Source: Clostridia bacterium
GTDB taxonomy: Bacteria > Bacillota > Clostridia > RGIG7378
Direction: 5' to 3'
Assembly: GCA_045588325.1 (NCBI GenBank)
Contig: JAZNEA010000104.1
Coordinates: 1,560-65,559 of the forward strand
DNA: 64,000 nucleotides
In this document: piece by piece, positions 1-62,690 of the stretch
Layout of the letters: every line of letters begins with the position of its first letter
Numbering within the stretch: the first letter of the stretch is position 1
Program-made: the position numbers and the translations under genes
Notes under the pieces: model-generated
Databases searched by the model: none
What the model was told of the DNA's origin: nothing
Seen by the model: only the letters and a program-made list of their open reading frames with translations

Positions 1-767
<767 letters not shown>

Positions 768-771
768 TCAG

Positions 772-2429: not shown

Positions 2430-2482
2430 TTAATCCTCCGATCTGTCAAAACCGGTCTTAAGTTCTCCTCTGTCTCTCTTTG

Positions 2483-2509: not shown

Positions 2510-2520
2510 TCACTGAGTAC

Positions 2521-2549: not shown

Positions 2550-2719
2550 CATAGCCTTTTGCGAAATATTTATTATTTTGGGAGGCATATTTTGTGCAGT
2601 TTTCCGTAATACTATGCTTTCGAGGCCATATTATAAGTGCAAATATTAAAAATGGGGTTTTTTTGCTCAAAAGTTCTGTTATAATAAGCAGATAGAAAAG
2701 AAATACGAGGTGGATCTTT

Positions 2720-3886: not shown

Positions 3887-3912
3887 TACTGCATAGGGTA
3901 AGAGATATAACA

Positions 3913-3942
3913 AAAGCGTGACCGCCAGGCCACGCTTTTTTG
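3913..3942 (+). terminator. Candidate rho-independent terminator after argJ-like gene
   Basis: Short GCGTG…CACGC hairpin followed by TTTTTTGTTT. Confidence 0.45.
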
Positions 3943-3948
3943 TTTGCA

Positions 3949-3980
3949 AAAAGGCCACCATGTGAAAATGGTGGCCTGAG
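3949..3980 (-). terminator. Rho-independent terminator of the 4003-5925 gene (bidirectional hairpin)
   Basis: Perfect 9-bp stem GGCCACCAT/ATGGTGGCC with a 6-nt loop, followed by a U-run on the minus strand. Confidence 0.7.
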
Positions 3981-4002
3981 ATTTGATTTTGCTAAAAGCA
4001 GT

Positions 4003-5925: not shown

Positions 5926-6168
5926 CTTTTATTCCATCCTTTCTAAATTGCTAAAGGCTGCATTTCTCCCAACAAAACGTCAAAACCTGATGTCTTAAAA
6001 TGTAGTCGACAGTTAGATTTCTTCATCTCTTTTGCGACATTTGTTATGTGAGACGCAACACAAAGATTCCTTTGTATTATATTTTGTCGCATTTTAGATG
6101 TCAACTGTCTCATTCTAGAAAATTTATGATGTCCCTCAATTTGGTTAAAATACATTTAGAGGTTTTAT

Positions 6169-6417
6169 ATGACGATGAACAACTTTGACAATCTAGAACG
6201 TTATCGAGACTTAGGATGCGCCATCTCCTACTATAGAAAGCGCAAGAAACTCACTCAGGAGCAACTGTCTGAGCAAGTTGGTATCAGCCGACAGCATATG
6301 GGCGCTATCGAGGCCCCCAACATGGTTCGCGCTGTATCTTTGGATGTTCTTTTTAATATTGCTACTGTTTTAGAAATAGAGCCGTATGTTCTCCTAAAGT
6401 TCTCTCCTGAAAAATAG
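6169..6417 (+). CDS. XRE-family helix-turn-helix transcriptional regulator (82 aa)
   Basis: HTH_3-like core KLTQEQLSEQVGISRQHMGAIE. Divergent from the SipW-signal protein gene. Confidence 0.75.
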   Translation: MTMNNFDNLERYRDLGCAISYYRKRKKLTQEQLSEQVGISRQHMGAIEAPNMVRAVSLDVLFNIATVLEIEPYVLLKFSPEK

Positions 6418-6492
6418 GCGGTGCGCACTTCTGTGTACCTGAGTTTTGTTACGCCAAAATTGCTGTGGAGAACTCCGATTTTTAAAAAAATA

Positions 6493-6531
6493 AAGGAGAT
6501 GGATATTTAAGCTATCCATCTCCTTTTTATT
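6493..6531. terminator. Bidirectional intrinsic terminator between the XRE gene and clpE (convergent genes)
   Basis: aaaggagatggata…tatccatctccttt, a perfect 14-bp stem flanked by A-run and T-run. Confidence 0.8.
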
Positions 6532-6541
6532 TGTCTTAATA

Positions 6542-8863: not shown

Positions 8864-8888
8864 ATGTGTCACCTCTCTAACAATAGTA

Positions 8889-8930
8889 ATTTAAAATTAT
8901 ACTCCCTTGGACAGTGCTTTTGCAAGATAC
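8889..8930 (-). promoter_or_regulatory. Candidate clpE promoter embedded in the 3' end of uvrA (-35 TTGCAA, 18 nt, -10 TATAAT)
   Basis: The minus strand reads TTGCAAaagcactgtccaagggagTATAAT directly upstream of the clpE RBS. Confidence 0.45.
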
Positions 8931-11773: not shown

Positions 11774-13791
11774 CTTGTCTTAGTCCCCTTTGATCCTATG
11801 GTGACATCCTGAATCTCGGCCTTGAGCTCGTAGATCCTGTCTCTAATCATGGCAGCAGCCTCATATCTCTCCTCAGCTGCAGCGGCCTTCATCTCTATAG
11901 TAAGCTGTGCAATCATGTCTTCTAAAGTCTTAATATCAGGCAAGCCGACAAATTCGCCTGTCTCCTGGTCCACATCTGCAATCTTGGTGGTCTCAATAAT
12001 GGTCTTAACCGCCTTAGTAACGCTGGTAGGAGTAATGCCGTGGTCAATATTGTACTGCTGTTGAATCTGTCTCCTGCGGTTGGTCTCGTCGATAGCCCTC
12101 CTCATTGAGTCGGTAATCGTGTCTGCATACATAACAACTCTACCCGCCACATTACGGGCTGCTCTGCCTATGGTCTGAACAAGACTGGTCTCGCTGCGAA
12201 GGAACCCCTCCTTATCTGCATCGAGTATGGCTACCAATCCAACCTCGGGAATGTCCAGGCCCTCTCTCAATAGATTAATACCCACCAAAACGTCGAACTC
12301 GCCCTTGCGCAGGTCCTGGATGATCTCTGTCCTCTCTATGGTCACAATGTCACTATGCAAATATCTGACGCGTACACCCATTTTGTCCAGGTAGTCTGTC
12401 AAATCCTCGGCCATCTTTTTGGTAAGCGTGGTAACCAGCACCCTATGGCCCTGGCCTGTCACTATACCGATCTCATCCAGCAGGTCATCTACCTGTCCGG
12501 TAACAGGTCTGACTATTACCTCCGGGTCAATAAGTCCCGTAGGACGAATAAGCTGCTGAACCTCCTGGGTGGAATGCTCACGCTCAAACTTGGATGGCGT
12601 GGCGCTGACGCAAATCATCTGGGGAACTCTGCCCAAAAACTCATCGAACTTAAGGGGGCGGTTATCATAGGCGGAGGGTAATCTCCATCCATATGTGACC
12701 AAATTGTCCTTACGAGCCCGGTCACCATTATACATAGCTCCCACCTGAGGAATGGTAACGTGAGACTCATCCACGAACATAATAAAATCCTCTGGCATAA
12801 AGTCCAAAAGAGTATATGGTGGAGATCCAGGCTCTCGTCCGGATAAGTGACGAGAGTAGTTCTCAATACCCTTACAGGAGCCTGTCTCTGTAAGCATCTC
12901 CATATCGTTAAGGGTACGCTCCTCTATCCTCTGCGCCTCCACATATCTGCCTCGGTCCTTAAAATCCCTGGCACACTCCTCCATCTCAGAAACGATGCCT
13001 GCTATAGCTGACTGCATCTTGGATCGCATAACTGCGTGATGGGACGCGGGAGTAATACCGACGTGACTCCTGGTGGCAATAACCTCTCCTGTGATGCTGT
13101 TAATCTCTCTGATCCTGTCTATCCCGTCCCCAAAAAACTCCACTCGGATAATAGTACCGGATGAATATGACGGAAATATCTCCAGAGTATCGCCCTTAAC
13201 TCCAAAGGTACCTCTGAGCCTTGTGAAATCGTTGCGCTGGAACTGCATGTCCACCAGGGCCTGCATAACGTCATCCATGGAGCGCTCCATGCCAGGTCTC
13301 AGCGACAACATGAGCTCCTTGTAATCCTCTGGATCGCCCAGGCCGTATATGCAGCTGACAGACGAAACGATAATAACATCCTTGCGCTCAAACAATGCTG
13401 TGGTGGCGGAGTGCCTGAGTCTGTCTATCTCATCGTTGACGTCGCAGTCCTTCTCTATATACAGGTCGGACATCGGCAGATAGGACTCCGGCTGGTAATA
13501 ATCATAATAGGACACAAAATACTCAACTGCGTTGTCCGGGAAGAAATCTCTGAACTCTGAGCAGAGCTGGGCTGCCAGTGTCTTGTTATGGGCCAGAACC
13601 AACGTGGGGCGCTGAACCCGCTGGATAACATTGGCCATGGTGTAGGTCTTGCCTGATCCGGTGACGCCCTTAAGTGTCTGGTAGCGATCTCCTCTGAGGA
13701 TGCCCTGAGATAAGCGCTCAATAGCCTCTGGCTGATCGCCAGTAGGCTTGTATTCTGAATGTAATTCAAAGCGTTTCTGTGTTTCTTGCAT
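11770..13791 (-). CDS. uvrB: Excinuclease ABC subunit B
   Basis: [24 protein letters not shown]… helicase motifs. The ORF track begins 15 nt earlier at a TTG; the ATG at 13791 has GGTGG/GAGGG upstream and matches typical UvrB N-termini. Confidence 0.93.
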
Positions 13792-13868
13792 ATCCCTCGC
13801 CACCAAAATCCATAGCAGCTAACATCGCTGCGGATATATATAATATTAGTTCTTATTCCTTATTTGTT

Positions 13869-14135
13869 TTACAATCTTATCAAAATCAGCCCCTGTAACT
13901 CACGAAAATAATCTTTCCAAAACAAAGTCATACCTTGCTTAAGACGATTATCATCCATAGCAAAACCTTTTCGCATATACTCTTTTAGTACATTTGTTGC
14001 CCATATGCGAAATTGAGTTGCCTGTTTAGAATTAACTCTATATCCTGCAGAGATAATTGTATCTAAATTGTAATAATTTGTTGGAGAATTTTGTATCTTT
14101 CCTGGAGTTGCACCATGTGGAGTGACTATTTCCAT
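13869..14135 (-). pseudogene. Remnant of a RhuM-family (virulence-associated) gene; only the central ~80 aa conserved block remains
   Basis: NYYNLDTIISAGYRVNSKQATQFRIWATNVLKEYMRKGFAMDDNRLKQ matches the conserved RhuM core. Intact RhuM proteins are about 330 aa; here the ORF is 88 aa in an AT-rich, otherwise non-coding stretch. Confidence 0.5.
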
Positions 14136-14353
14136 TTTGCTTTGTTATATCCACAATAGCATTCTTCCTTTTTTATAGAATATCATCCTCTCAACGCATC
14201 GGTTGAACATTTGTTCTATTGTATCATTCATTATATATTGCGTAAATACTAATCTAAAGTATTCCCTAAAATTAGTCAAAGATTTTCAGGCCAAATATTC
14301 AAAGAGGGATGGATTTCTCCACCCCTCAAATAAACATATTCTACCTAAAAATA

Positions 14354-15610
14354 TTACTCCACGTCCATCATGGTACCCATAAAAAACGGAACATTGTTCT
14401 CACAATCAATCAACATATACACAAACGGCTTGTCAAGATACACTTCCTTAATATCCTCCGGTGGCATTGCACTACCACAATCCATCTGGACAACAGTCAC
14501 AGCACCGGCCTTAGTACCCTGTTCTCCCACGGAAATAAAGGTCTTATGGAGAACACTGCCTATATAGATATTCATTTCCTCACGTGTGCCAAGGTTACTA
14601 AAATCTGCGTCAAACGCGTTAAAAGCATCTGACATGCCCATCTCCTGTAGAATTTTAGACATCTCCACATCGTATTTTGTCTCAAACTTGGGAATAGAAT
14701 GATTAACCGTTATGTACTGAGGATTTGATAGTAAGTCGTTTAAGGTTTTGCTGTCAAGTGCTGCAACATACTCCGCCACACTTACTCCCTCATTAGGAAG
14801 CATTGCCACAAAGGCATATTTGCCGCCTTCATAATACTTCATAAAGCCAGTTGCCTTTTCATCTTCCAGATAGATGTTGTCTGATCCATACATAAAATCT
14901 ACAGTCTGCTTGGATCCGTTCTCCTTAGTAAAATCTCCACTTTTAACCTGATACTTCTCGTAAGGCTCTGACCATTCTGCTTCAAAGGCCAAGGCATTAA
15001 TGAGATACATGATTGCCTCATCGGGAATCTGCTTAATAATCTCAGGGATCATGCCATCGGTCTTCTCTTTTACCCAATTGTTAATATCTTTGCAGGTCTG
15101 GTTGTTAAATGGTGCCTTATAAACATCTGCGCCATAGTAATCTGCGTTAGTCTGTAGGAAGTCCTGATACACTGCAAAATCCTGGTCCTCGGTAAACCAA
15201 ATGGAATTAGCAAGGCTAAGCTTATACTTGTCTCCCTGAGGAAGATTTCGCATATAACTATAGAGATATAAATTTAACTCCTCTGTGCTCATCCCTAAGA
15301 CAGCTTCCATCTGTGCTAAAGTCTGACCCTCTGCACCATTTGCCGTCATTGCCAAAGCGCATAGCACGGACAAGGGGGAAATCAACGAATTTCTGTCGTC
15401 TTCGATACTTTCCTTAAATAATCGGACTGCAAAGTCTGTTACAATAGCATTTTTGTCTCCATGGTCTTCCAAAGCAACGACCTGTCTCGGAGTAATATCC
15501 TCCATCAAATCCTTTACGTGAGTTACCGTGCCACAGCCTGTTAGATTTAATGTCATTGCACATAACAACAACACACTAACTATAATCAAACCTAAACGAT
15601 CCTTTTTCAT
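14354..15610 (-). CDS. Serpin-family serine protease inhibitor, lipoprotein (signal peptide with LTGC lipobox)
   Basis: 418 aa with serpin-length architecture and a reactive-centre-loop-like GTKAGAVTVVQMDCGSAMPPED near the C-terminus. N-terminal MKKDRLGLIIVSVLLLCAMTLNLTGCG. Confidence 0.8.
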   Translation of the reverse strand: MKKDRLGLIIVSVLLLCAMTLNLTGCGTVTHVKDLMEDITPRQVVALEDHGDKNAIVTDFAVRLFKESIEDDRNSLISPLSVLCALAMTANGAEGQTLAQMEAVLGMSTEELNLYLYSYMRNLPQGDKYKLSLANSIWFTEDQDFAVYQDFLQTNADYYGADVYKAPFNNQTCKDINNWVKEKTDGMIPEIIKQIPDEAIMYLINALAFEAEWSEPYEKYQVKSGDFTKENGSKQTVDFMYGSDNIYLEDEKATGFMKYYEGGKYAFVAMLPNEGVSVAEYVAALDSKTLNDLLSNPQYITVNHSIPKFETKYDVEMSKILQEMGMSDAFNAFDADFSNLGTREEMNIYIGSVLHKTFISVGEQGTKAGAVTVVQMDCGSAMPPEDIKEVYLDKPFVYMLIDCENNVPFFMGTMMDVE

Positions 15611-53591: not shown

Positions 53592-53678
53592 TCTACGTTG
53601 TGCCGCCTTGGTGGAATTGGCAGACACAAGGGACTTAAAATCCCTCGATGTAACAGTCGTACCGGTTCAAGTCCGGTA
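53592..53678 (+). tRNA. tRNA-Leu (anticodon UAA), class II with long variable arm, CCA encoded
   Basis: Acceptor stem GCCGCCT/AGGCGGC, anticodon stem AGGGA/TCCCT with loop CUUAAAA, T-arm ACCGG-TTCAAGT-CCGGT, and 3' ACCA. Confidence 0.85.
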
Positions 53679-53684
53679 GGCGGC

Positions 53685-53712
53685 ACCAGCACATAGCAGG
53701 TCTCAGGGCCTG
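53685..53712 (+). terminator. Intrinsic terminator after tRNA-Leu
   Basis: gcagg tctcaggg cctgc followed by tttttgtttt. Confidence 0.6.
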
Positions 53713-53805: not shown

Positions 53806-54660
53806 GTGATATATATGAAAAGAAACAAAGTCAACATTTTCCTGAGTATAGTAGTAATTTTATTGATAGTAGCAGGTGTGGCCTTTCTCCTATATGATGC
53901 CCTCTACCTCAAAACACCGGACAACAATTTGCCCCGGGCCATCACCACTATTTGTCTGCTTGTAGTAACATTAATCAGGCTTATCAGCGGCTCCAACAGG
54001 GGCAAAAGCCTTAAGTTTTATGAGAAGTTTTACGAGAAAAATTTGGGGACTGCCTTCGAATCCCGACCTCGTTATCGCAGAAAGCTCTTGCAAGCCTGCC
54101 GCCTGTATAATCAGTCCAATTATGACGCCGCTCTTAAGCATTTGTTCAAATTGCTAAAGTATGCAGAGAACAGGAGCGATGCAATAGCAGTTTGGTTATT
54201 TATTGCTCTATGTTTCTCTGACGCCGGTGCAATCCAAAACGCAATCCAGGCCTATCACAAATTATTGGAAATTGAACCAAGCCATGCCACTGCACATAGC
54301 AACTTAGGTCACAGTTATATTGCTTTTGGAGACTTTGATGCGGCACTTAGTCACTACAACAGAGCCATTGAACTTAAGCCTGACAATTATTTCGCTTACC
54401 ATAACAGAGCCAGCTGCTATTTCCGACTAGGTGAATACGATGATGCCATAACCGATGCCAAAAAGGCTCTTGAGTTTAAGAACAACGGCGTAGAGTCTGC
54501 ATGCCTATTGACTATAATCTATGCATTGCTGGGTGATGATGAGAACAAAAAGCATTACTACCATCTCGCCATCGCATCGGGCAAAAATCCTGACGATTTA
54601 AACGCCTCTATAGAGTACTTTTCCAGCGAGAACAATATAGCCTCCCCAGAGGAAGCATAA
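53806..54660 (+). CDS. TPR-repeat protein with N-terminal membrane anchor (284 aa)
   Basis: Two N-terminal TM helices, then several 34-aa TPR-like repeats (…AIQAYHKLLEIEPSHATAHSNLGHSYIAFGDFDAALSHYNRAIELKPDNYFAYHNRASCYFRLGEYDDAI…). Confidence 0.7.
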   Translation: MIYMKRNKVNIFLSIVVILLIVAGVAFLLYDALYLKTPDNNLPRAITTICLLVVTLIRLISGSNRGKSLKFYEKFYEKNLGTAFESRPRYRRKLLQACRLYNQSNYDAALKHLFKLLKYAENRSDAIAVWLFIALCFSDAGAIQNAIQAYHKLLEIEPSHATAHSNLGHSYIAFGDFDAALSHYNRAIELKPDNYFAYHNRASCYFRLGEYDDAITDAKKALEFKNNGVESACLLTIIYALLGDDENKKHYYHLAIASGKNPDDLNASIEYFSSENNIASPEEA

Positions 54661-54681: not shown

Positions 54682-55428
54682 TTATTGTTGTGGAAATGAG
54701 CGCACTACAAGTCCTGGCTTGCCATACTCAAATGGGCTCCCGTCCACCATGCTGTATGAGCAGCCCGCCTCTGTAGCAATAAGCAGACCTGGGGCGATGT
54801 CCCAAATCTTGTGGTAGTAGGTAATATACATCTGAGCATTGCTGTTTGCCATCATGGCAAAATCCACGCATGCGGCGCCAAAATGCCTGGTCTTAAGGAA
54901 CTTACCCTGCAAGGACTTGACCACCTTAAACTGGTCATCCATGGGTATATCTATGTTGTCGTAATAGTCGCTGATAATAAGTATGCCATCCTTAGGGGCA
55001 ATGTCCCTGTTTACCATAATTCTCTGGCCATTTTTGTAGGCACCTTGACCCTTTTGCGCTGTGTACATGTCTCCGCTAGTGGGAAAATACATGACTGACG
55101 CCACGCACGTCTCCCCCTCAAAGAGGGCCATCTGCACGCCGTACAAATCAATACCTGCAGCATAATTGCAGGTGCCATCAATGGGGTCTATAACAATGGT
55201 AGTCCCCTCCAGCTCCGCATCCGGGTTGTATTCCTCGCTGATTATATTCACATCCGGGCAAAGCTCCCTCAGCCGGCGGATTATCAGATTCTCCGTGTCC
55301 AGGTCGTTTTGCGTCAACAAGTCATTGCGTGTCTTGTGCTCCACAACTCGGACCGTCTGGCATAACAGTTCCTGCCCTGCCTCATGGGCGACGGACGCCA
55401 TTATCCCCAATATTTTCAAATTGTTCAT
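54682..55428 (-). CDS. Inositol-monophosphatase-family (IMPase/SuhB/CysQ-like) phosphatase
   Basis: Motifs ISEE, VIDPIDGT and WDIAPG present; 248 aa. Its start codon overlaps the stop of the upstream TIR-NACHT gene (ATGA). Confidence 0.8.
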   Translation of the reverse strand: MNNLKILGIMASVAHEAGQELLCQTVRVVEHKTRNDLLTQNDLDTENLIIRRLRELCPDVNIISEEYNPDAELEGTTIVIDPIDGTCNYAAGIDLYGVQMALFEGETCVASVMYFPTSGDMYTAQKGQGAYKNGQRIMVNRDIAPKDGILIISDYYDNIDIPMDDQFKVVKSLQGKFLKTRHFGAACVDFAMMANSNAQMYITYYHKIWDIAPGLLIATEAGCSYSMVDGSPFEYGKPGLVVRSFPQQ

Positions 55429-58271
55429 ACCGTCTCTCCGATTCGCAATACAGACTCAATGTATTCTATCCAGCGATCGATGTGCTCATTTTCTTCGTTG
55501 TCCAGCATGACGCGCTTGGACAACAACTTGGACAATCTCTCTGCCACCATATTGCACTCTGCCTTTTCCAGATAGGCATCAATCTCGTCGTAAATGTCCG
55601 CTCCTGCCACAGCGCATTTCAGTCCCTCCTCGCATACGGTCACGTCGTCCCCATGATTTACAAGGGCATCCAGCGCCAGCAAGAAGTTGATCTGTCCCTT
55701 ATCGTACTTGCCAGAAGCCTCTTTGAGCAGCACCCGCAGTTCATCGCGAACACCCTGGGACGACCGCTCCATTATGCGCAGGAACTGTGTGGTGTACTGG
55801 AAACGAATATAGTATCTGTCCACGGTGTTTCTGTTTTCCAGATATATCTCCTCCGCCTTGTCCAGGCAGTCCTCTGCAGCCTCATACTCCTCCTGCCAGA
55901 TATAGCCATATGCCGAAACCCTGTAATCCTCTGCCAAAAACAGCTTGTTTGACGTACGCTTGTCTCCGTCGGGCATCTCGTCAATCTTGCGGGACAGAAT
56001 CTTCACTGCCTTGCGGCAACTCTTGTTGCTCTCGTCAAACCTCAATGTGCTCAGGTAGATTTTGCCGGTGATAAGGTGGGCCAAAGACAGCTCAAACTCG
56101 GCGTCGCTATATGGATTCTCCTCCTCATCTACGGCCAGCTCCGCATATTCTATGCCTCGTTCAAAGCTCTCCAGCGCCTCGTCAAACCTGACCAATTTTC
56201 TCTCGGACAGTCCCTTGACATTGTAAATCTCCGAAAGAATGGCGGAGGTCATCTGCTCCTGTCCCTCTAACTGCAACAGTGCCTCTGCCCTCTTTATGGC
56301 CTTGGCGAAATCCTCCACTATGTAATAGTAGAATACCTTGCCAACCTCGCCCTCCAGGCCCCAGTCTCTGTTGTCCCTGCGAAGGGCTATTGAGAGGCCC
56401 AGGTCCTTGAGCTTAAAGAATTTGCCGGAGTTGTACAGCAGTCTCCTGTGCTCCGAGAATATCCTGATAAATGTGTCAGATGTCAGGTGATCTGTACACA
56501 GGCTCTGGTCGTGCTGATGCAATTTGTCTATCTGACTCAAGTAATTGTCCAACCCGGAGTCGAACTCAAAGAAGTCAATTATGTTTTGCTGGAGGTCATG
56601 GTCCTTAAGTATTTCGGCCAACCTCTTAAAATTGCCCAATTCAATCAGAACAGCCCCAAAATACTTGAGAACATACTTGTTGTTCTGCCACTGGTTGTCG
56701 GCGTACACCTGCTCCACGTATGTCAGCAGTCGCTTATAGCCGTTCTTGCGGCTGATAAAATACACCTGGTCGATATCGTCGCTGGTAAGCCAATCAATAA
56801 TGGACTTGTGCAAAGGCTCGATAAACTTGTCCTTAAGAGGGAACAAGCTGCAGATTGCGGCCAAAATGCGCTTGACATAATACTCGTCCCACCCAAAGAA
56901 GTCCTCCAGGAATGATATCTCTGTAGGTTCCTGCTCGATGCACAGGAACTCCAACAAAGGCTTGACCTCCTCAAAGGAAACAAGATTGTCGCTGCTATTA
57001 TTGAAGATTCGGGAGAAACAGTCGTTGAAAAATCCGTAGATACCAACTGGGAACACGTTTATGTCCCCCAGGGAGAGGTTATCGTCCCTAATCTGCTTAA
57101 CAATCTCTCTGGCGTACAGGAACGAGCCCTCTGACTTGTTGATAAGGATCTCTATCTGGTGCGACCCGGCCTCTGGGAACTGTTTGGTGTAATACTCCCT
57201 AAGATCCTCCTGGGTTTGGGCCTCTGACAGGACGAAAACCTGGGAGATCGGCTTGAGAATCCTGCTGACCTCTGGTTCGTTCCTGCTGGTGAGCACGAAC
57301 TTGAGCCACCAGGGCAACGACTCCCTCGTCCTCTGCAAAATTGAACAAATCTCGTTCCGGCCCATGCCTGAGCACTCATCAAGGGCGTCAATTATGACCA
57401 TCAGCGGCTTGCGATGCTCCAACTTGGCCATAGGCTCTATAATGAGGTATTCGAATATGCGGGTGGCGTTTTTCTCAAAGAGCTTGTCCAGTTCCATAAG
57501 GTTAAGGAGCCTGTCCTTATACTCCGGAATGGCCTCTGCCAGCTGATACGCTACAGATGTAATGATTACCTTGGGATTTACCCTGTCGGAGTTGTTGAAC
57601 CTGCAGAAATGCAAAGCTCCCACCATATCTGGGTAACGCCATGTCAGCATGCTGGATATGGCTGTCTTGCCTGTACCTGGACCTGCGTTCAACCAGAACA
57701 CATTGTTGTTGCTGGTCATAAACTTCTCTACAGCATCGAACACGTCACGGCGGCCACTGAATCCTGTGTAGTAGCCATATGTAAGCTCCTTGGACGAGAT
57801 GGGTTTAAGACTGCTGCGCAGGCGGATCTCTGAGTCAGAAAAGCCCAGCCTGACCTTGCCAGACAAAATCTCAAACAGCTTAGTCAGAACCTTGCGGTAT
57901 TCGGAATCCACCAAATTCCCATCCGGGTCAATGGCGCTAATCAGGCTCAGCCTCTGCTTTTTGTTAATGCTGAGGGGAACTGTAGAATTATCAAGGCAGA
58001 TGGGGATGATCTCGGACTGAACCTCACCTGCACGGCAGAGTTCGTTAAGGCAGTATCCATCGTGGGATACGGAGCGGGCAGAAACCATAAACAAAAAATA
58101 TCTGCAGGCCAGTATATGCTCGTCGATAATCCTCTCCCAGTCGCCCTTGTGCAGGTAGTCCACATCCAGGAATACCTCTATACCATATGTGCGCAGATCA
58201 TCTGCCAAACGCTTGACCACCTGGTCGTGATGACCATGTCCGTAACTGATAAATACCTTGATATTATCCAT
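55425..58271 (-). CDS. TIR-NACHT(STAND NTPase)-TPR protein, bacterial NLR-like; candidate antiphage defence effector (948 aa)
   Basis: N-terminal TIR fold (KVFISYGHGHHDQ…FLFMVSARSVSHDGYCLNELCRAGE, with the conserved xCLxEL glutamate). Walker A LNAGPGTGKTA; NACHT-type Walker B MVIIDALDEC; sensor-1 FVLTSRNE. About 500 aa of helical/TPR-like repeats follow. Confidence 0.8.
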   Translation of the reverse strand: MDNIKVFISYGHGHHDQVVKRLADDLRTYGIEVFLDVDYLHKGDWERIIDEHILACRYFLFMVSARSVSHDGYCLNELCRAGEVQSEIIPICLDNSTVPLSINKKQRLSLISAIDPDGNLVDSEYRKVLTKLFEILSGKVRLGFSDSEIRLRSSLKPISSKELTYGYYTGFSGRRDVFDAVEKFMTSNNNVFWLNAGPGTGKTAISSMLTWRYPDMVGALHFCRFNNSDRVNPKVIITSVAYQLAEAIPEYKDRLLNLMELDKLFEKNATRIFEYLIIEPMAKLEHRKPLMVIIDALDECSGMGRNEICSILQRTRESLPWWLKFVLTSRNEPEVSRILKPISQVFVLSEAQTQEDLREYYTKQFPEAGSHQIEILINKSEGSFLYAREIVKQIRDDNLSLGDINVFPVGIYGFFNDCFSRIFNNSSDNLVSFEEVKPLLEFLCIEQEPTEISFLEDFFGWDEYYVKRILAAICSLFPLKDKFIEPLHKSIIDWLTSDDIDQVYFISRKNGYKRLLTYVEQVYADNQWQNNKYVLKYFGAVLIELGNFKRLAEILKDHDLQQNIIDFFEFDSGLDNYLSQIDKLHQHDQSLCTDHLTSDTFIRIFSEHRRLLYNSGKFFKLKDLGLSIALRRDNRDWGLEGEVGKVFYYYIVEDFAKAIKRAEALLQLEGQEQMTSAILSEIYNVKGLSERKLVRFDEALESFERGIEYAELAVDEEENPYSDAEFELSLAHLITGKIYLSTLRFDESNKSCRKAVKILSRKIDEMPDGDKRTSNKLFLAEDYRVSAYGYIWQEEYEAAEDCLDKAEEIYLENRNTVDRYYIRFQYTTQFLRIMERSSQGVRDELRVLLKEASGKYDKGQINFLLALDALVNHGDDVTVCEEGLKCAVAGADIYDEIDAYLEKAECNMVAERLSKLLSKRVMLDNEENEHIDRWIEYIESVLRIGETV

Positions 58272-58389
58272 TAGTCCCTCTGTCTATATCTGTGATAATT
58301 TTATATTTAAAATGTAGAGCCTTGACCTGGAAAAGTCAACCAAATGAAGGAATGTCTCCCCGACATCTGCCACGTCCCATGCTCATCGC

Positions 58390-59142: not shown

Positions 59143-59446
59143 ATTAATCCCTTGATAAATTATATTTGATTCGATTTTACCCTATTCCGATTGGTTTTTG
59201 AACAGCAAAATCGTCCATGCGTCAGACATTTTCCCATCATAGAGGTCATTTAATGTTGTCGGAGGGCAATGCCGATTTCCGATATTACCAACAGTTGCTC
59301 TGGGAGACCAATGGAAATACAGCTGAGCTCAAAAAGGCTGTTTTGAGGAATCGCTACTCTATTCGTCAACAGGGTCGTAATTACCTAGAAAACAAACCCG
59401 TGCCATTCTAGGCAAGGCGCCTTCTGATCAAAAAGAAAACGAGATG

Positions 59447-59617
59447 GATTACTTATGTCCGTAATTAATACGGTTATAGTTATAAAGCTAGAATCTCAAT
59501 GAAAAACAAAGGCCAGAGCAGGATTTTAAAACCTGACCTGGCCTGGTTAACTATAGTGAGTTTATACCATGGATTCAATAGTTCCTGTTCTATGCAAATA
59601 GCATCACAGAGGGTGTT
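59447..59617. repeat. Direct repeat copy A (about 175 bp, about 88% identical to copy B)
   Basis: …tatagttataaagctagaatctcaatgaaaaacaaaggcc…aaaacctgacctggcctggttaactatagtgagtttataccatggattcaatagttcctgttcta…atcacagagggtgtt, aligned by eye to 62441-62616. Confidence 0.7.
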
Positions 59618-59660
59618 GCACATTTTCATTGCAACTGAAGAATCAGGCGCCTTCATTTTA

Positions 59661-59963
59661 CTACCACTCTATACTCCTAAAATCAGAGACAAACTTTGTA
59701 TGCTGTTTCAGAATTATTGCCCTTCGTTTTCCTTTACAATAATAATTGTTTAGCCATTTTACAAATCCAACTGTCTCTAAAATGGGGGAAAGTTCTCCAT
59801 TTATATTCTCCCAATAATCCGAATCATCCTTAGGTGCTTTGTCAGCAACCCAGAAACTATGTTCGTAAGCAATTTTTATAATAATGGCACTCAACTCCCT
59901 TGGTATTGCAATAATATCAACGTCGTTATAATCATCCTCGAATATGATATTTATTCTTTCCAT
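59661..59963 (-). CDS. Hypothetical 100-aa protein, possible orphan immunity protein of the RHS cluster
   Basis: Good RBS (AGGAGAA), acidic small protein directly downstream of an RHS C-terminal fragment. Confidence 0.4.
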   Translation of the reverse strand: MERINIIFEDDYNDVDIIAIPRELSAIIIKIAYEHSFWVADKAPKDDSDYWENINGELSPILETVGFVKWLNNYYCKGKRRAIILKQHTKFVSDFRSIEW

Positions 59964-59984
59964 AGGCGTTCTCCTATTTTACTT

Positions 59985-60480
59985 CTATCCTTCCATCGGG
60001 AAAGATTCTCCTCCCTGCAGGTTGGTTACTACATAGTATGTATCTTTCAAGCTTCCCTGAATATATTGTATGGCCTCTAACCCTGTCTGTCCATACTGGA
60101 AATACAACTGCAGATTGCTGCATCTGTAATTATAGCTTAGGCAAATCACTATCCTTAAGATTGTAATGTTTTCTATTTGGCGATATATATGCACATCCAG
60201 ACTTAAGACAGGGAGTAATATCTCCGTCTAATATATTCATACTTATGGCCGTATGAGAAGGTGATACTGCCACCATTAGAGGTGTTATTGCCATCTCCGT
60301 ATGTTATCTTGGTTAAGTTCTGGTTAGAGTCATAGGTGTAATTAGCTCTCTTGTAATGAACTTCTTCATATCCAATATAGCTAATACCAGTTAATAACTG
60401 TGTAGAGCTATTATAGTAGAACCTATATTCGCGCTGATTACCATCGCATATGTAATCATCAAATCATTAGATAGTACCTC
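59985..60480 (-). pseudogene. Orphan RHS/YD-repeat C-terminal fragment, disrupted by stop codons
   Basis: Minus-strand translation gives …YRFYYNSSTQLLTGISYIGYEEVHYKRANYTYDSNQNLTKITYGDGNNTSNGGSITFSYGHKY…, preceded by two stops, with further frame breaks toward 59985. Confidence 0.55.
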
Positions 60481-60576
60481 CAACTATATTCTCTAGTTGC
60501 AACCCATTATCGTTATATAGATTTACTGTCACAGCTATGACACTATACATTCTTATTATTTGAGAAAAACGCAAAA

Positions 60577-60612
60577 AGGAGGCCGACTTCAAAACGAAGT
60601 CGGCTCACAAGC
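60577..60612 (-). terminator. Intrinsic terminator downstream of the immunity-like lipoprotein gene
   Basis: GCCGACUUC-GUUUU-GAAGUCGGC hairpin followed by a U-rich tract on the minus strand. Confidence 0.65.
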
Positions 60613-60748
60613 TTTATTTGATTTGATCTGTTGTAATTTATAAACTCTGCGTGCTGTATGTTTTAAAACATTAACTTTATTACATTTTCTCATATAGTAT
60701 CACATGAGGGGACACAATTTTGACGTAGTCCTCTCCTATATTCTCGAA

Positions 60749-61258
60749 TCACTCCTCATACCATATTCTAAGGACTCTACCATCCTTTTTCTGTATAGCT
60801 ATGTTGCACTCATCCCCGATTACAACTTCATCAAGAGATTCCCAAGATTCCCAAAAAGTTACTATCCAAATTTCATCCATTTCATCAAAAAAGACCGCCT
60901 GTACAGCATATCTAGAATATCTATCTGGTTTTTCCATACCATTAAAAACTGCCTGTGCTATGCTAATTGCCACTTCCCTCGTAGAAACTACGTCTCCATA
61001 ATAAGTCCCCATATTTTCCTCCCAGTTTTTATTAGGAAAAATACCCGACTCATAATCTATCATTGTATTCTCTGAATCTCCTTCCATCACATTATTATCT
61101 GTTGTACCGTTTTTCTCTGGTTCTACTGTTGGTGCAGCCGTGGGTGTTGGTTCTGCTGTTGGTGCAGTCGCAATATCTTGTGTTGTTATGTTGCTTTTAC
61201 ATGCTGTGAAAGCAACCACCATAGAAACCACAAAAATTACTGCTAATATTTTCTTCAT
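60749..61258 (-). CDS. Lipoprotein (169 aa), candidate cognate immunity protein, possibly NTF2-like fold
   Basis: Signal peptide with lipobox (AFTAC), Pro/Thr linker, compact C-terminal domain. Sits immediately 3' of the RHS toxin tip. Confidence 0.55.
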   Translation of the reverse strand: MKKILAVIFVVSMVVAFTACKSNITTQDIATAPTAEPTPTAAPTVEPEKNGTTDNNVMEGDSENTMIDYESGIFPNKNWEENMGTYYGDVVSTREVAISIAQAVFNGMEKPDRYSRYAVQAVFFDEMDEIWIVTFWESWESLDEVVIGDECNIAIQKKDGRVLRIWYEE

Positions 61259-61350
61259 ATAACCTCCTTGCTAATACGTTGGCCATGGTTTATTTTTACA
61301 AATAAATGAACATCCTTCCTGTAAATGATTGTACCATGATGATTGAAATT

Positions 61351-62443
61351 CTAACAAAGGGGAATTTTCTGAGAATCTGTCAACGCTATAGGTGTTATCA
61401 TTCCTAAATTTATCGTTGACGCAGACGCAACATTATATTTTAACAATTCTAAATTAGGTCCAACAACATATGCATTTATTCCCCCATTATTAGCAACATT
61501 AATATCTGCTTTAGAAAACGAATTAGAATTTGGATGTGTATGAACATATGCAACCAATGCAGTTCCTGATGGAACTTTTTTACTAACTGTAGCAGAATGA
61601 GGCTTTCCTGATCTAGGATCTGAATAATTATATGTTGTTATGCCAAGGACGGTTCTTGAATAAATCATAGCTGATTATTCGTGTCGTATATAACTACTAG
61701 AACTATATGTTTCTTCCGCAAATGCCCTTGCAGCTTCCTCCTCGGAAGAGAATGGTATGTGTACTGAACCCAATTTTCTCCATGGTAGACTTGCTGGACT
61801 ATTTAAAATATCAACATCAAATATACTTGCTTGAACAGCTACACAAAGTTTACCAAACAAAGCTAATGGAATTTCTCCTGTGCAATCCACCCTATTCACT
61901 GGATTATTGCCACAGTATGCAAACATATTTGCACCTGTCATACCCTGTCCTGTGGATACATAGATATCAGCGTTAATGAACCTACCCCACTCTGGGTTGT
62001 AGTATCTGCTGTTCAGGTAGTAGAATCCTGTCTCTGCGTCGTAGACATATCCCCTGTAACGTCGTCGTCGCGGACTGCGTTTATGTTCGCAACAGCGTCT
62101 GTAGATACTATCTCTTCGCTATTGCACCACACTCTCCGTCGCTCCTCCTCTCCCCAGAAAAGCAAGCATTTCCGGGGGCCCCATTAACCTGTCCCATGTA
62201 CCATCACTTAATGGGTTGCCTATCTGGTCATAGGTTATGGTTTTTCCGTTGTAAGAGGTTAACAAATCACTCCAATCGCTATCTGTGTAGCCATAGGAGA
62301 CAGATTCCAGAACAGTTCCAAGTGTTCCCTCGGTATAGGCATATCTCTTCTTAGAGAGGATGTTACCGCCTAAATCATAAGTGTAGGTCCATGTATCATT
62401 TAATACCTGGTCATTTACTCTGGTAAGCTGGATTGAGGTGGAT
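61351..62443 (-). pseudogene. 5'-truncated RHS-family polymorphic toxin C-terminus (YD repeats, RHS core end, C-terminal toxin domain) with an in-frame TAA
   Basis: Minus strand reads …WTYTYDLGGNILSKKRYAYTEG…GKTITYDQIGNPL…[16 protein letters not shown]…[18 protein letters not shown]…SYIRHE*SAMIYSRTV…HTHPNSNSFSKAD…. The frame is closed 5' by a stop exactly at the boundary of repeat copy B, and there is an in-frame TAA at 61675-61677. Confidence 0.6.
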
Positions 62444-62616
62444 TAAGTATGTACGCAAGTGATACGGCTATAGTTATAAAGATAGAATCTCAACGAGAAA
62501 ACAAAGGCCTGGGTAGAAATTTAAAACCTGACCTGGCCTGGTTAACTATAGTGAGTTTATACCATGGATCCAATAGTTCCTGTTCTACACATATGGTATC
62601 ACAGAGGGTGTTATTT
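62441..62616. repeat. Direct repeat copy B (partner of 59447-59617)
   Basis: See copy A; this copy begins exactly where the RHS reading frame ends. Confidence 0.7.
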
Positions 62617-62649
62617 GTTTTCGCCGCAGTCCAATCGCTCCCTTACAAA

Positions 62650-62690
62650 AAAACACCCCAATTCTGCATTGAACTGGGGTGTTATGTCCT
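62650..62690 (-). terminator. Intrinsic terminator of trpB2-like gene
   Basis: Minus strand cacccca gttcaatgcagaat tggggtg followed by ttttttt. Confidence 0.7.

What the first reader, a model, noticed from the sequence alone, without database searches (positions are those of the whole stretch)
54682..58271. TIR-NACHT-TPR NLR-like gene translationally coupled to an IMPase-family phosphatase: candidate two-gene defence module
The 948-aa protein combines three parts: (i) an N-terminal TIR domain retaining the xCLNEL motif, whose glutamate is catalytic in TIR NADases; (ii) a STAND NTPase with NACHT-type Walker B (IIDALDEC) and a TSR sensor-1; (iii) a long C-terminal helical/TPR sensor-like region. 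This matches the architecture of bacterial NLR-like (bNACHT/Avs-type) antiphage proteins with a TIR effector. Its stop codon overlaps the start of an IMPase/CysQ-family phosphatase (ATGA), and that phosphatase retains all three catalytic motifs. IMPase-fold enzymes act on phosphorylated sugars and nucleotides such as pAp. A dedicated phosphatase partner for a TIR-STAND protein is not a pairing I can place in any described system. It could process a TIR-derived nucleotide product or act as an accessory or antitoxin-like partner. The pair lies in an accessory-looking stretch just after a tRNA-Leu, next to a TPR membrane protein and a degraded RHS cluster.
Basis: partly seen in the sequence, partly recalled or inferred. 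Interest (0 to 1): 0.8.

Follow-up and report, generated by a model that had tools for sequence, protein, structure and literature searches.

The report
TIR-NLR-like gene with dedicated phosphatase partner
A bacterial relative of plant and animal NLR immune receptors, carrying an NAD-cleaving TIR domain, is almost always encoded next to its own sugar/nucleotide phosphatase, a pairing I could not find described and which suggests the TIR's nucleotide chemistry needs a second enzyme.

Summary
On the minus strand, a 948-aa TIR / NACHT-like STAND NTPase / TPR protein (55425-58271) overlaps by ATGA a 248-aa IMPase-fold phosphatase (54682-55428).

The pairing is not a local accident. I examined 36 loci that encode full-length relatives (28-99% identity; gut and rumen Clostridia, Bacilli and Bacteroides). 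An IMPase gene lies directly beside the TIR-NACHT gene in 30 of them, once in swapped order. Flanking genes differ between loci, and the two proteins co-diverge (r=0.85, Mantel 0/2000).

- **Other partners:** where IMPase is missing, another phosphoesterase usually takes its place: MBL/Apyc1-like, calcineurin-like or alkaline phosphatase.
- **Extra genes:** eleven loci carry an MBL gene directly upstream; ten of these demonstrably also have the IMPase. Two carry a HAD phosphatase and one a GDPD.
- **Negative control:** ten distant TIR-NACHT relatives with different C-termini have no such neighbour.
- **Active enzymes:** the IMPase and MBL catalytic residues, the TIR glutamate and the Walker motifs are invariant.

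Best reading: an Avs/TIR-NLR-like sensor-effector plus an accessory hydrolase acting on an NAD(P)-derived nucleotide. Defence activity and substrate are untested. I found no paper or PADLOC model describing the pairing. Verdict: a new variant of a known kind.

The parts
58311..58339 (-). Sigma-70-like promoter match (TTGACT-17-TACATT) in the 118-nt gap between the ZIP transporter gene and the TIR-NACHT start
   Evidence: This is a consensus match only (9 of 12) and no function is shown.
55425..58271 (-). 948-aa TIR / NACHT-like STAND NTPase / TPR protein (whole gene, stop codon included)
57852..58271 (-). TIR domain (about aa 1-140) with invariant C74xxE77 in the DGYCLNEL motif
   Evidence: Pfam TIR_2 at 56 bits. 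Weak PDB sequence hits to SARM1 TIR. E77 is invariant in 63 homologues. The model shows a beta-alpha fold with strands 5-10, 32-35, 58-63 and 87-92.
57231..57764 (-). NACHT-type P-loop NTPase core (about aa 170-347): Walker A GPGTGKT (197-203), Walker B IIDALDE (293-299), sensor-1 TSR (328-330)
   Evidence: Pfam NPHP3_N at 89 bits. Invariant columns. Foldseek matches to Avs3, SAMD9, RPP1 and MalT.
56757..57230 (-). Helical and winged-helix-like STAND arm (about aa 348-505)
   Evidence: Secondary structure of the model. Distant homologues hit WHD_TANC1 here.
55428..56756 (-). C-terminal all-helical TPR-like solenoid (about aa 506-948), the presumed sensor
   Evidence: The model has helices only, with pLDDT mostly above 90. 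Foldseek matches APC/C TPR subunits, Rap and LGN. Sub-threshold TPR_1/2/12 hits. Many invariant residues run to W934.
55425..55428 (-). ATGA stop/start overlap, implying translational coupling
   Evidence: Relatives show the same -4 or -8 overlap, or gaps of 25 nt or less.
54682..55428 (-). 248-aa IMPase-fold Mg-dependent phosphomonoesterase (E65/E66, DPIDGT 81-86, WD 209-210)
   Evidence: Pfam Inositol_P, E 2e-46. Model pLDDT 95.7, with TM 0.85-0.89 to TM1415, SuhB and human IMPase. Catalytic residues invariant in 131/131 members.
54640..54656 (-). Terminator-like hairpin 26 nt after the IMPase stop codon
   Evidence: This is a pattern match only, with a weak T-tail.

Best explanation
**What it is.** The two genes form one operon encoding a bacterial NLR-like immune module.

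- **Sensor-effector.** The 948-aa protein is both sensor and effector. The C-terminal TPR solenoid would bind a trigger, presumably a phage protein as in Avs proteins. The NACHT-type NTPase would then oligomerise, bringing the N-terminal TIR domains together. That switches on their NAD(P)+-glycohydrolase or cyclase activity through the conserved glutamate E77.
- **Accessory enzyme.** The co-translated 248-aa IMPase-fold enzyme is a catalytically active accessory phosphomonoesterase. It would act on a ribose-linked phosphate of an NAD(P)-derived nucleotide that the TIR makes.
- **Extended operons.** Where a diesterase is also present (MBL/Apyc1-like, GDPD, calcineurin-like or NUDIX nearby), it would make the first cut and the monoesterase (IMPase, HAD, alkaline phosphatase) the second. 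The operon would then carry its own catabolic route for the TIR product.
- **Likely purpose.** The route would keep leaky TIR output harmless before infection, and/or make NAD+ loss irreversible after activation.

**Shown here**
- The domain architecture and the intact catalytic motifs.
- The conserved, order-independent adjacency of the two genes and their co-divergence.
- Replacement or supplementation of the IMPase by unrelated phosphoesterase folds.

**Inferred**
- Antiphage role.
- TIR NADase activity.
- The substrate of the phosphatase and the purpose of the hydrolysis.

I put the general claim (a functional TIR-STAND plus active phosphohydrolase module) at about 0.85. The specific product-catabolism mechanism is what the confidence figure refers to.
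For: **Architecture**
- HMM hits, model and Foldseek matches to Avs3, SAMD9, RPP1 and MalT plus TPR proteins.
- TIR E77 and the Walker A/B and sensor-1 residues are invariant in 63 homologues at 29-85% identity.

**Linkage**
- IMPase is adjacent in 30 of 36 informative loci.
- One of these is an order swap, in Anaeroplasma locus L046.
- Only window 54.70-58.27 kb is shared with distant loci.
- Pairwise identities of the two proteins correlate at r=0.85, Mantel 0/2000.
- Gaps run from -8 to +25 nt.

**Enzymatic rather than structural role**
- IMPase catalytic residues are invariant in 131/131 members.
- The partner is replaced by unrelated folds: MBL/Apyc1-like overlapping the stop in the roughly 30%-identity clade (L008/L040 and L070); Metallophos (L005); alkaline phosphatase 30 nt away and convergent (L025).

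**Two-step chemistry**
- An MBL with intact HxHxDH sits directly upstream in 11 loci. In 10 of them the IMPase is also present; L022 is cut by its contig end.
- One locus reads HAD, TIR-NACHT, IMPase(-8), GDPD(-14) (L152). L002 also has an upstream HAD.
- NUDIX genes lie near two loci that lack an adjacent IMPase.

**Specificity of the association**
- 0 of 10 distant TIR-NACHT relatives with other C-termini have a phosphoesterase downstream.
- In a census of 138 neighbouring proteins, Inositol_P and MBL are the only recurrent families.

**Defence link**
- A TIR-NLR single gene is an experimentally validated antiphage system (PMC9122126).
- Family members sit beside Cas9 and TIR-STING, and beside AbiLi and an OLD-like ATPase.
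Against: - No experiment exists: neither NADase activity, phosphatase substrate nor phage protection is known.
- Most IMPase-type loci are flanked by housekeeping genes, not defence genes.
- No homologue was found in IMG/VR viral contigs, in phage records or (apart from distant cyanobacterial STAND proteins) on plasmids.
- If the TIR only makes ADPR plus nicotinamide, there is no phosphomonoester for an IMPase to remove and no obvious need to clear the product.
- IMPase-fold enzymes are not known to act on ADPR or cADPR-type molecules.
- One member (L151) has no adjacent phosphatase, so the partner is not strictly required next to the gene.
- The closest stand-alone IMPases (41% identity) are as similar to the window enzyme as the partners of distant family members are. 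The partner clade is therefore not cleanly separated from housekeeping enzymes.
- The single-case partners (Metallophos, alkaline phosphatase, PPTase, GDPD) could be chance neighbours.
Confidence: 0.4

Rival explanations
1. **NADP(H) phosphatase feeding the NADase.** The IMPase removes the 2'-phosphate of NADP(H), turning it into NAD(H). Once the TIR is activated, the NADP pool drains into the NAD pool and both collapse. This would block NADPH-dependent steps such as dNTP synthesis.
For: - IMPase-fold enzymes with NADP phosphatase activity exist. Foldseek matches the model to the Staphylococcus 'dual specific IMPase/NADP phosphatase' (4g61, 5f24; TM about 0.8) and to a 2'-AMP-bound SaIMPase-II (5dw8).
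- The IMPase domain of MJ0917 is an NADPase (PMC8553519).
- NCBIfam gives a weak hit to the bifunctional NADP phosphatase/NAD kinase family (E 3e-11).
- The alternative monoesterases seen (HAD, alkaline phosphatase, Metallophos) could do the same reaction.
Against: - It does not explain the recurrent MBL/Apyc1-like diesterase, either as sole partner or alongside the IMPase, nor the GDPD.
- A constitutive NADPase would run a futile cycle with NAD kinase.
- An efficiency-enhancing accessory predicts looser linkage than the overlap and co-divergence seen.
- The hit to the NADPase family is far below its cut-off (43 bits against 493).
Confidence: 0.25
2. **Anti-counter-defence.** The phosphohydrolases destroy intermediates that phages or host salvage would use to rebuild NAD+ after TIR cleavage (ADPR, ADPR-pyrophosphate, PRPP, NMN). 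NAD+ depletion then cannot be reversed.
For: - The partner set spans many generic nucleotide or sugar-phosphate hydrolases: IMPase, HAD, alkaline phosphatase, Metallophos and MBL, with NUDIX nearby. That fits 'degrade whatever is left'.
- From established knowledge, not tested here: phage NAD+ reconstitution pathways use ADPR-PP, PRPP and NMN.
Against: - There is no evidence that any of these enzymes acts on those intermediates.
- The mechanism overlaps the best explanation (product catabolism) and cannot be separated from it by sequence analysis.
- No literature link was found.
Confidence: 0.1
3. **Non-catalytic partner.** The IMPase acts as a protein-binding regulator, chaperone or antitoxin of the TIR-NACHT protein, in the way SuhB moonlights as a structural subunit of the rRNA antitermination complex. 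Its phosphatase activity would be irrelevant.
For: - Translational coupling suggests fixed stoichiometry, and the two proteins co-diverge.
- SuhB-type IMPases are known structural subunits (PDB 6tqn and 6ib8 appear among the matches).
- A nucleotide-hydrolase-fold partner of a SIR2 NADase acts as ligand sensor in Kongming (abstract of PMC13454610).
Against: - All metal-binding and catalytic residues are invariant in 131/131 sequences.
- The partner can be swapped for unrelated folds that share only phosphoesterase chemistry. A specific binder would not be replaceable in that way.
- The MBL active site is also intact.
Confidence: 0.08
4. **Not an immune module.** The TIR-NACHT-TPR protein has a housekeeping or signalling role, for example in NAD or phosphate metabolism, in these gut Firmicutes. 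Alternatively, the IMPase is simply the organism's housekeeping enzyme sharing an operon.
For: - Flanks are mostly housekeeping genes.
- The locus is syntenic in 77-85% relatives.
- There is no presence on phages or plasmids.
- The closest stand-alone IMPase lies between dnaG-rpoD and ppdK.
- The whole protein, including the 'sensor', is well conserved.
Against: - The pair keeps its adjacency while its flanks change, across Clostridia, Bacilli and Bacteroides.
- The gene order is swapped once, and the partner is displaced by analogous enzymes.
- The TIR plus STAND plus repeat architecture is, so far, tied to immunity and conflict systems.
- Members occur beside Cas9/TIR-STING and AbiL/OLD.
Confidence: 0.1

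Closest known systems
Rst_TIR-NLR (single-gene TIR-NLR system from E. coli P4-satellite hotspots; Rousset et al. 2022, PMC9122126)
   Same: One polypeptide combines an N-terminal TIR with an NLR-like STAND NTPase. It is experimentally antiphage.
   Different: - It is described as a single gene with no phosphatase partner.
- It comes from a proteobacterial satellite, whereas this family is chromosomal in gut Firmicutes and Bacteroides.
- Sequence relatedness could not be tested here.
- PADLOC gave only weak matches for the long protein (TIR-domain models and a weak STAND_TPR hit).
Avs / AVAST antiviral STAND proteins (e.g. Avs3, PDB 8dgc) and bNACHT proteins
   Same: The layout is an N-terminal effector, a STAND NTPase and a C-terminal TPR-like sensor. 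Avs3 is the best structural match to the model (E 4e-10).
   Different: - There is no hit to any AVAST/Avs HMM in PADLOC.
- The P-loop is of the NPHP3_N/TANC NACHT type.
- The trigger is unknown.
- Avs systems are not described with a conserved phosphatase gene. The 2026 STAND survey PMC13581612 does not mention phosphatases at all.
Plant TIR-NLRs (RPP1, ROQ1) and their NUDIX negative regulator NUDT7
   Same: - Both have a TIR followed by a STAND NTPase and a repeat sensor, and RPP1 is among the top structural matches.
- The [W/Y]CxxEL catalytic-glutamate motif is the same (my knowledge).
- In plants a separate nucleotide hydrolase restrains TIR-derived nucleotides (my knowledge). That is the closest functional analogy to the partner proposed here.
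   Different: - Plants use an NB-ARC domain and LRRs rather than a NACHT-like domain and TPRs.
- The plant hydrolase is unlinked and of NUDIX fold.
- Plant TIR products act through EDS1 receptors, and no receptor is encoded here.
Thoeris (ThsB TIR plus ThsA effector)
   Same: A bacterial TIR enzyme makes an NAD-derived nucleotide as part of immunity.
   Different: - No ThsA-type SLOG, Macro or other receptor-effector gene is present.
- Here the TIR is fused to its own STAND sensor.
- NCBIfam Thoeris type III ThcB4 scores 16 bits against a cut-off of 220.
Dual-specificity IMPase/NADP phosphatases (S. aureus IMPase-I, PDB 4g61/5f24; MJ0917 NADPase domain) and IMPase/FBPase TM1415, SuhB
   Same: The fold and metal sites are the same (TM 0.78-0.89; sequence hits). 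These enzymes remove ribose 2'-phosphates as well as sugar phosphates (entry titles; PMC8553519).
   Different: - Identity is only 20-29%.
- Scores are below all curated equivalog cut-offs.
- Those enzymes are stand-alone housekeeping proteins, not operon partners of an immune-type protein.
Signal-degrading enzymes of nucleotide-based immunity (type III CRISPR ring nucleases; phage Apyc1 MBL nuclease)
   Same: A hydrolase removes an immune nucleotide. The MBL genes in 11 upstream and 2 downstream positions pass the Pfam Anti-Pycsar_Apyc1 threshold (57 bits against 50) and keep the HxHxDH motif.
   Different: - Apyc1 is a phage counter-defence enzyme, whereas here the MBL is host-encoded inside the operon.
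- Ring nucleases are CARF-type enzymes or unrelated folds.
- No cyclase is present in this module.
Kongming KomBC (SIR2 NADase complexed with an NTP-pyrophosphatase-fold partner)
   Same: An NADase effector is paired with a nucleotide-hydrolase-fold protein (abstract of PMC13454610).
   Different: - In Kongming the partner senses dITP as an activating ligand.
- The NADase and partner folds are different (SIR2 and HAM1-like).
- Kongming has no STAND sensor.

Membership tests
TIR-domain NAD(P)+ glycohydrolase/cyclase | TIR fold or HMM match above the curated threshold | tested here: met
   PF13676 TIR_2 at 56.2 bits against a cut-off of 28. The model has a flavodoxin-like beta-alpha N-terminal domain. 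There are weak SARM1 TIR sequence hits, and RPP1 is among the top structural matches.
TIR-domain NAD(P)+ glycohydrolase/cyclase | Conserved catalytic glutamate in the [W/Y]CxxE[L/I] motif | tested here: met
   C74 and E77 are invariant in 63 homologues down to 29% identity. Equating E77 with the catalytic Glu of SARM1 and plant TIRs rests on motif knowledge, not on a residue-level superposition done here.
TIR-domain NAD(P)+ glycohydrolase/cyclase | NAD+ consumption and identity of the product | not testable with these tools
   This needs an enzyme assay with LC-MS.
STAND NTPase, NACHT clade | Walker A GxxGxGK[ST]; Walker B hhhhD followed two residues later by an acidic pair (D[GAS]hDE); sensor-1 Arg (TSR) | tested here: met
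   GPGTGKT at 197-203, IIDALDE at 293-299 and TSR at 328-330. G199, G201, K202, D295, D298, E299 and R330 are invariant.
STAND NTPase, NACHT clade | Match to a NACHT-type HMM | tested here: inconclusive
   PF24883 NPHP3_N (NACHT-like) scores 89 bits against 24.8. The canonical PF05729 NACHT model does not hit this protein and appears only in a few homologues, such as P0049 and P0089.
STAND NTPase, NACHT clade | NBD, helical and winged-helix module followed by a repeat sensor | tested here: met
   Model at pLDDT 87.9. Foldseek matches Avs3, SAMD9, RPP1 and MalT for the NTPase module, and APC/C, Rap and LGN TPRs for the C-terminus.
Defined antiviral STAND systems (Avs1-5/AVAST, as modelled in PADLOC v2) | Match to the family's HMMs | tested here: not met
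   PADLOC returns only weak TIR-domain hits and one weak STAND_TPR hit (E 1e-3). It returns nothing for the IMPase.
Defined antiviral STAND systems (Avs / bNACHT / Rst_TIR-NLR) | Demonstrated protection against phage | not testable with these tools
The only support is precedent for the architecture (PMC9122126).
Defined antiviral STAND systems (Avs / bNACHT / Rst_TIR-NLR) | Enrichment next to other defence genes or on mobile elements | tested here: inconclusive
   - Defence neighbours are clear in 2 lineages: Cas9 plus TIR-STING plus patatin, and AbiLi plus an OLD-like ATPase.
- Most other loci have housekeeping flanks.
- No phage or plasmid copies were found.
IMPase / FBPase / CysQ superfamily (PF00459) | HMM above threshold, the fold, and the three metal-binding motifs | tested here: met
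   159 bits against a cut-off of 27. Model pLDDT 95.7 with TM 0.85-0.89 to TM1415, SuhB and human IMPase. E65/E66, D81, D84, G85, T86, W209 and D210 are invariant in 131/131 members.
Housekeeping orthologues SuhB, CysQ, HisN, NADP phosphatase/NAD kinase | Score at or above the NCBIfam equivalog cut-off | tested here: not met
   HisN 119.5 against 275; FBPase/IMPase 101.5 against 264; CysQ 97.7 against 229; SuhB 79.4 against 332; NADPase/NADK 42.9 against 493.
Thoeris | Separate ThsA-type receptor-effector gene next to the TIR gene | tested here: not met
   No such gene is in the window or recurs in 30 related loci. ThcB4 scores 16 bits against 220.

The most novel reading that the evidence does not exclude
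The TIR of this NLR-like protein does not merely burn NAD+. It makes a phosphorylated nucleotide product, for example a 2'-phospho-ADPR or cADPR-type molecule, pRib-AMP-like or a 2',3'-cNMP-derived molecule. The operon carries a host-encoded catabolic off-switch for that product: a diesterase (MBL, GDPD or Metallophos) followed by a monoesterase (IMPase, HAD or alkaline phosphatase). This would be the first dedicated product-clearing pathway for TIR immunity in bacteria. It would parallel CRISPR ring nucleases and plant NUDT7, and it could point to an unrecognised TIR product.
Probability: 0.25. Interest if true: 0.8.

Novelty: new variant of a known kind. Interest (0 to 1): 0.64.

Why it matters
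- **Current picture.** TIR-STAND proteins are regarded as self-contained sensor-effectors that kill by NAD+ depletion.
- **What a required partner would mean.** A phosphatase that is near-obligatory, translationally coupled, catalytically intact and replaceable by analogous enzymes implies an extra chemical step. That step could be clearing or processing a TIR product, draining NADP(H), or blocking NAD+ resynthesis. Any of these would add a new layer to NAD-centred immunity.
- **Experimental handle.** Incubating the TIR with NAD(P)+, with and without the partner, gives a direct biochemical route to identifying what this TIR makes.
- **Where it is found.** The family is widespread in uncultured gut and rumen Firmicutes, which are under-represented in defence-system catalogues. 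PADLOC has no model for it.

Tried and rejected
- **IMG/VR viral contigs** scanned with the family alignment: 102 pattern matches, none a real relative.
- **Phage records:** no match. **Plasmids:** only distant cyanobacterial STAND fragments. The module is therefore not demonstrably mobile-element-borne.
- **JGI metagenome scan:** mostly distant NACHT-only relatives. Only L070 and L071 were full length, so it did not widen the census of the gut clade.
- **PADLOC:** no system-level match for either gene.
- **Literature:** seven full-text searches combined TIR, STAND, NACHT or NLR with IMPase, phosphatase, metallophosphoesterase or NADP phosphatase. None found a paper describing the pairing.
- **CysQ/pAp-phosphatase reading of the partner:** rejected. 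CysQ-type structures and HMMs score far below IMPase/FBPase/SuhB types.
- **tRNA-Leu-associated island including the TPR membrane protein and RHS fragments:** rejected. An 85% relative is syntenic from 49.5 to 59.2 kb and lacks only 59.2-62.7 kb. More distant loci share just the two genes.
- **P0231, a 326-aa 'TIR + IMPase' protein:** it looked like a natural fusion. It carries only the C-terminal half of the IMPase, so it is more likely a deletion remnant.
- **Clean monophyly of partner IMPases:** not obtained. A quick NJ tree places a stand-alone subclade (including P0221) near the base, among the partner lineages. The tree is only approximate.
- **Rfam:** nothing but the tRNA in 53-64 kb.
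- **Complex prediction and residue-level TIR superposition** were not possible with the tools available.

Full report
**1. Observation**

The ORF list shows two minus-strand ORFs at exactly the reported coordinates: 55425..58271 (948 aa) and 54682..55428 (248 aa). Read on the minus strand, the junction is ...GAG ACG GTA TGA with ATG AAC AAT starting inside it. This is a 4-nt ATGA stop/start overlap.

Pfam places three features on the long protein: TIR_2 on aa 6-109, NPHP3_N (a NACHT-type P-loop) on aa 185-330, and sub-threshold TPR hits on aa 649-710. The short protein matches Inositol_P over almost its whole length, E 2e-46.

A tRNA-Leu(taa) lies at 53602-53688. A weak promoter-like site (58339-58311) and a terminator-like hairpin (54656-54640) bracket the pair. 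These are consensus matches only.

**2. The large protein**

A search of 5.8 billion proteins found about 90 full-length relatives. They are 930-1040 aa long and 29-99% identical. The few that carry names are annotated only as 'TIR domain-containing protein' from Clostridia, Ruminococcaceae or Bacteroides MAGs.

In a 63-sequence alignment the following are invariant:
- the TIR motif residues C74 and E77 (DGYCLNEL);
- Walker A G199/G201/K202;
- Walker B D295/D298/E299;
- the sensor-1 arginine R330;
- many residues through the C-terminal region, up to W934.

AlphaFold2 with this alignment gives a confident model (pLDDT 87.9) with three parts: an N-terminal beta-alpha domain, a P-loop core with helical arms, and an all-helical solenoid from about residue 506. 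Foldseek against the PDB returns Avs3 bound to phage terminase, SAMD9, the plant TIR-NLR RPP1 and MalT for the NTPase part. It returns APC/C subunits, Rap proteins and LGN for the TPR part.

By sequence, the only solved relatives are SARM1-type TIR domains, and the match is weak. PADLOC gives weak TIR-domain hits but no Avs/AVAST or other system model. NCBIfam gives only far-sub-threshold TIR hits. So the architecture is that of an NLR-like TIR effector protein, but it is not a member of a catalogued system.

**3. The small protein**

- It falls below every NCBIfam equivalog cut-off. HisN, archaeal-type FBPase/IMPase and CysQ score about equally, and SuhB scores lower.
- Its best solved relatives are the Aquifex and Thermotoga IMPase/FBPases, SuhB and human IMPase. 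CysQ and pAp phosphatases are much weaker.
- The model is excellent (pLDDT 95.7) and superposes on TM1415, SuhB and human IMPase with TM 0.85-0.89. It also matches the staphylococcal 'dual specific IMPase/NADP phosphatase' and a 2'-AMP complex.
- The metal-binding and catalytic residues E65, E66, D81, D84, G85, T86, W209 and D210 are invariant in all 131 members of its subfamily.

It is therefore a catalytically competent IMPase-fold phosphomonoesterase of undetermined substrate.

**4. Is the pairing conserved?**

I collected loci in three ways: exact-protein look-ups in metagenome assemblies, a scan of one genome per GTDB species, and a JGI metagenome scan. Neighbours were called with a simple ORF script plus BLAST.

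Counting the window, 36 loci encode a full-length family member with observable flanks. Not all are independent: L023, L024 and L150 are close relatives.

| Arrangement | Loci |
|---|---|
| IMPase homologue directly adjacent | 30 of 36 |
| ...of which downstream (overlap -4/-8, or gap of 25 nt or less) | 29 |
| ...of which upstream (Anaeroplasma MAG L046, order swapped) | 1 |
| No adjacent IMPase | 6 |

A translated comparison (tblastx) of the window against these loci shows that only 54.70-58.27 kb is shared with all but the closest relatives. That span is exactly the two genes. Flanking genes include ABC transporters, ribosomal protein L17, shikimate kinase, ATP-grasp enzymes and a ZIP transporter.

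Pairwise identity matrices of the two proteins over 27 loci correlate at r=0.85, and no shuffle out of 2000 Mantel permutations reached this value.

As a negative control, ten distant TIR-NACHT relatives from environmental bacteria were checked. They share only the N-terminal ~500 residues, or in one case (L071) align along the whole length at 28% identity. None has a phosphoesterase downstream.

**5. The partner is replaceable and sometimes multiplied**

The six loci without an adjacent IMPase are:
- two lineages of the ~30%-identity clade, where an MBL/Apyc1-like hydrolase overlaps the stop codon instead (Bacteroides L008/L040, and L070);
- one with a calcineurin-like phosphoesterase 2 nt downstream (L005);
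- one with an alkaline phosphatase 30 nt away and convergent (L025);
- one with an overlapping Sfp-type phosphopantetheinyl transferase and a NUDIX gene two genes further on (L004);
- one with no adjacent hydrolase, only a NUDIX gene 2.7 kb away (L151).

In addition:
- Eleven loci have an MBL/Apyc1-like gene immediately upstream of the TIR-NACHT gene. In ten of them the IMPase is also present; L022 is cut by its contig end. The HxHxDH motif and the other metal ligands are intact.
- Two loci have a HAD phosphatase upstream.
- One locus reads HAD, TIR-NACHT, IMPase(-8), GDPD(-14).

In a Pfam census of 138 neighbouring proteins, Inositol_P and the MBL families are the only recurrent ones.

**6. 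Origin of the partner**

IMPase homologues fall into about 105 clusters scoring above 198 bits, followed by a drop. Many of them share contigs with the TIR-NACHT clusters; I inferred this by matching contig lengths.

A 41%-identical member (P0221, seen on 16 contigs) stands alone between dnaG-rpoD and ppdK. A 34% member is also alone.

In a quick NJ tree the partner IMPases form one large clade plus a few basal lineages. A stand-alone subclade containing P0221 sits among these. The partner therefore looks recruited from a Firmicute housekeeping IMPase lineage, and the separation is not clean. This is the main caveat on calling it 'dedicated'.

**7. Is it defence?**

Evidence for a defence role:
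- A TIR-NLR single gene from E. coli satellites is experimentally antiphage (PMC9122126).
- The Bacteroides member sits between a type II CRISPR-Cas locus and a TIR-STING/patatin cluster.
- L151 sits between an OLD-like ATPase, AbiLi (E 3e-59), a NUDIX gene and a helicase.

Evidence against, or neutral:
- Most IMPase-type loci have housekeeping flanks.
- The window locus is syntenic with its 77-85% relatives.
- No copy was found in viral contigs, phage records or plasmids.

The defence role is thus inferred mainly from the architecture.

**8. Mechanism**

Shown here:
- an intact TIR glutamate, an intact STAND NTPase and a conserved TPR solenoid;
- an intact phosphomonoesterase co-translated with it;
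- partner exchange among unrelated phosphoesterase folds;
- co-occurrence of a diesterase-type and a monoesterase-type enzyme in a third of the loci.

Inferred: trigger binding, then NTP-dependent oligomerisation, then TIR activation on NAD(P)+. The accessory hydrolases then act on an NAD(P)-derived nucleotide.

I favour catabolism of a TIR product (confidence 0.4). It is the only reading that accounts for both the diesterase and the monoesterase partners, and for the immunity-gene-like tight linkage.

The main rival (0.25) is an NADP(H) 2'-phosphatase that feeds the NADP pool to the NADase. It has good enzymological precedent but does not explain the MBL or GDPD genes.

Three further readings are less likely:
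- Destroying NAD+-reconstitution intermediates (0.1).
- A non-catalytic regulator (0.08). The invariant active sites and the fold swapping argue against it.
- A non-immune role (0.1).

**9. Known or new?**

TIR-STAND proteins as antiphage effectors are known. The general idea that TIR-type nucleotide generators co-occur with calcineurin-type phosphodiesterases, NUDIX and Macro domains in conflict systems has been stated (PMC7159879).

I found no description of a conserved IMPase or phosphoesterase partner for a TIR-NACHT-TPR protein. This covered seven full-text searches and the 2026 survey of bacterial STAND receptors, which does not mention phosphatases. PADLOC has no model for either gene as a system.

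I therefore rate it a new variant of a known kind. The analysis has clear limits:
- There are no experiments.
- Gene calls come from a simple ORF script.
- The tree is approximate.
- Several alternative partners rest on single cases.
- The MAG genomes could not be checked for a second IMPase copy.

Noticed in passing
window 59211-62685, with direct repeats at 59441-59617 and 62435-62612: A segment of about 3.5 kb is absent from the 85%-identical relative L017. It holds two copies of a ~180-nt direct repeat (83-90% identical, ~2995 nt apart), one near each end. It carries small ORFs, including an RHS C-terminal tip (…[15 protein letters not shown]) and a DUF4329/JAB-like fragment. It looks like an orphan polymorphic-toxin/immunity cassette insertion, unrelated to the TIR-NACHT pair. 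No Rfam family matches the repeat.
   Followed up: partly
L068 3223-4203 (protein P0231): A 326-aa ORF has an N-terminal TIR_2 domain joined to the C-terminal half of a partner-type IMPase (50% identity over aa 110-242). It is probably a deletion remnant of the two-gene module rather than a functional fusion.
   Followed up: partly
L008/L009/L010 (Bacteroides cellulolyticus-like) 1-15063: The ~30%-identity family member, with its overlapping MBL gene, lies between a type II CRISPR-Cas9/Cas1/Cas2 locus and a block of TIR-STING, RyR domain, an unannotated 706-aa protein and patatin. This is a dense defence island.
   Followed up: partly
L152 3205-9069: This operon is rich in phosphoesterases: HAD hydrolase, TIR-NACHT, IMPase (overlap -8), GDPD glycerophosphodiesterase (overlap -14), then an unannotated 238-aa protein. 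A large SNF2/helicase-type gene follows nearby.
   Followed up: no
L151 175-10829: A family member without any adjacent phosphatase sits among an OLD/AbiL-like AAA_15 ATPase, an AbiLi homologue (E 3e-59) with a 212-aa partner, a NUDIX hydrolase and an AAA_11/AAA_12 helicase.
   Followed up: partly
window 53806-54660 (+): This 284-aa protein has an N-terminal membrane segment and well-scoring TPR repeats, and it is convergent with the IMPase gene. It is conserved in the 85% relative L017, but not matched in the 77% relative L011 or in more distant loci. It is therefore a neighbour and not part of the module.
   Followed up: partly
L011 5248-5988: In the 77%-identity relative, the gene directly upstream of TIR-NACHT is a PNP_UDP_1 nucleoside phosphorylase rather than the ZIP transporter. 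PNP domains are themselves used as nucleotide-cleaving immune effectors, so this may or may not be a coincidence.
   Followed up: no
IMPase subfamily alignment (window aa 87 and 213): The whole subfamily, stand-alone members included, has DPIDGTCN (Cys87) and WDIAPG (Pro213). From memory, canonical IMPases more usually have T/K-N and WDxAAG at these positions. This may be a specificity signature.
   Followed up: no
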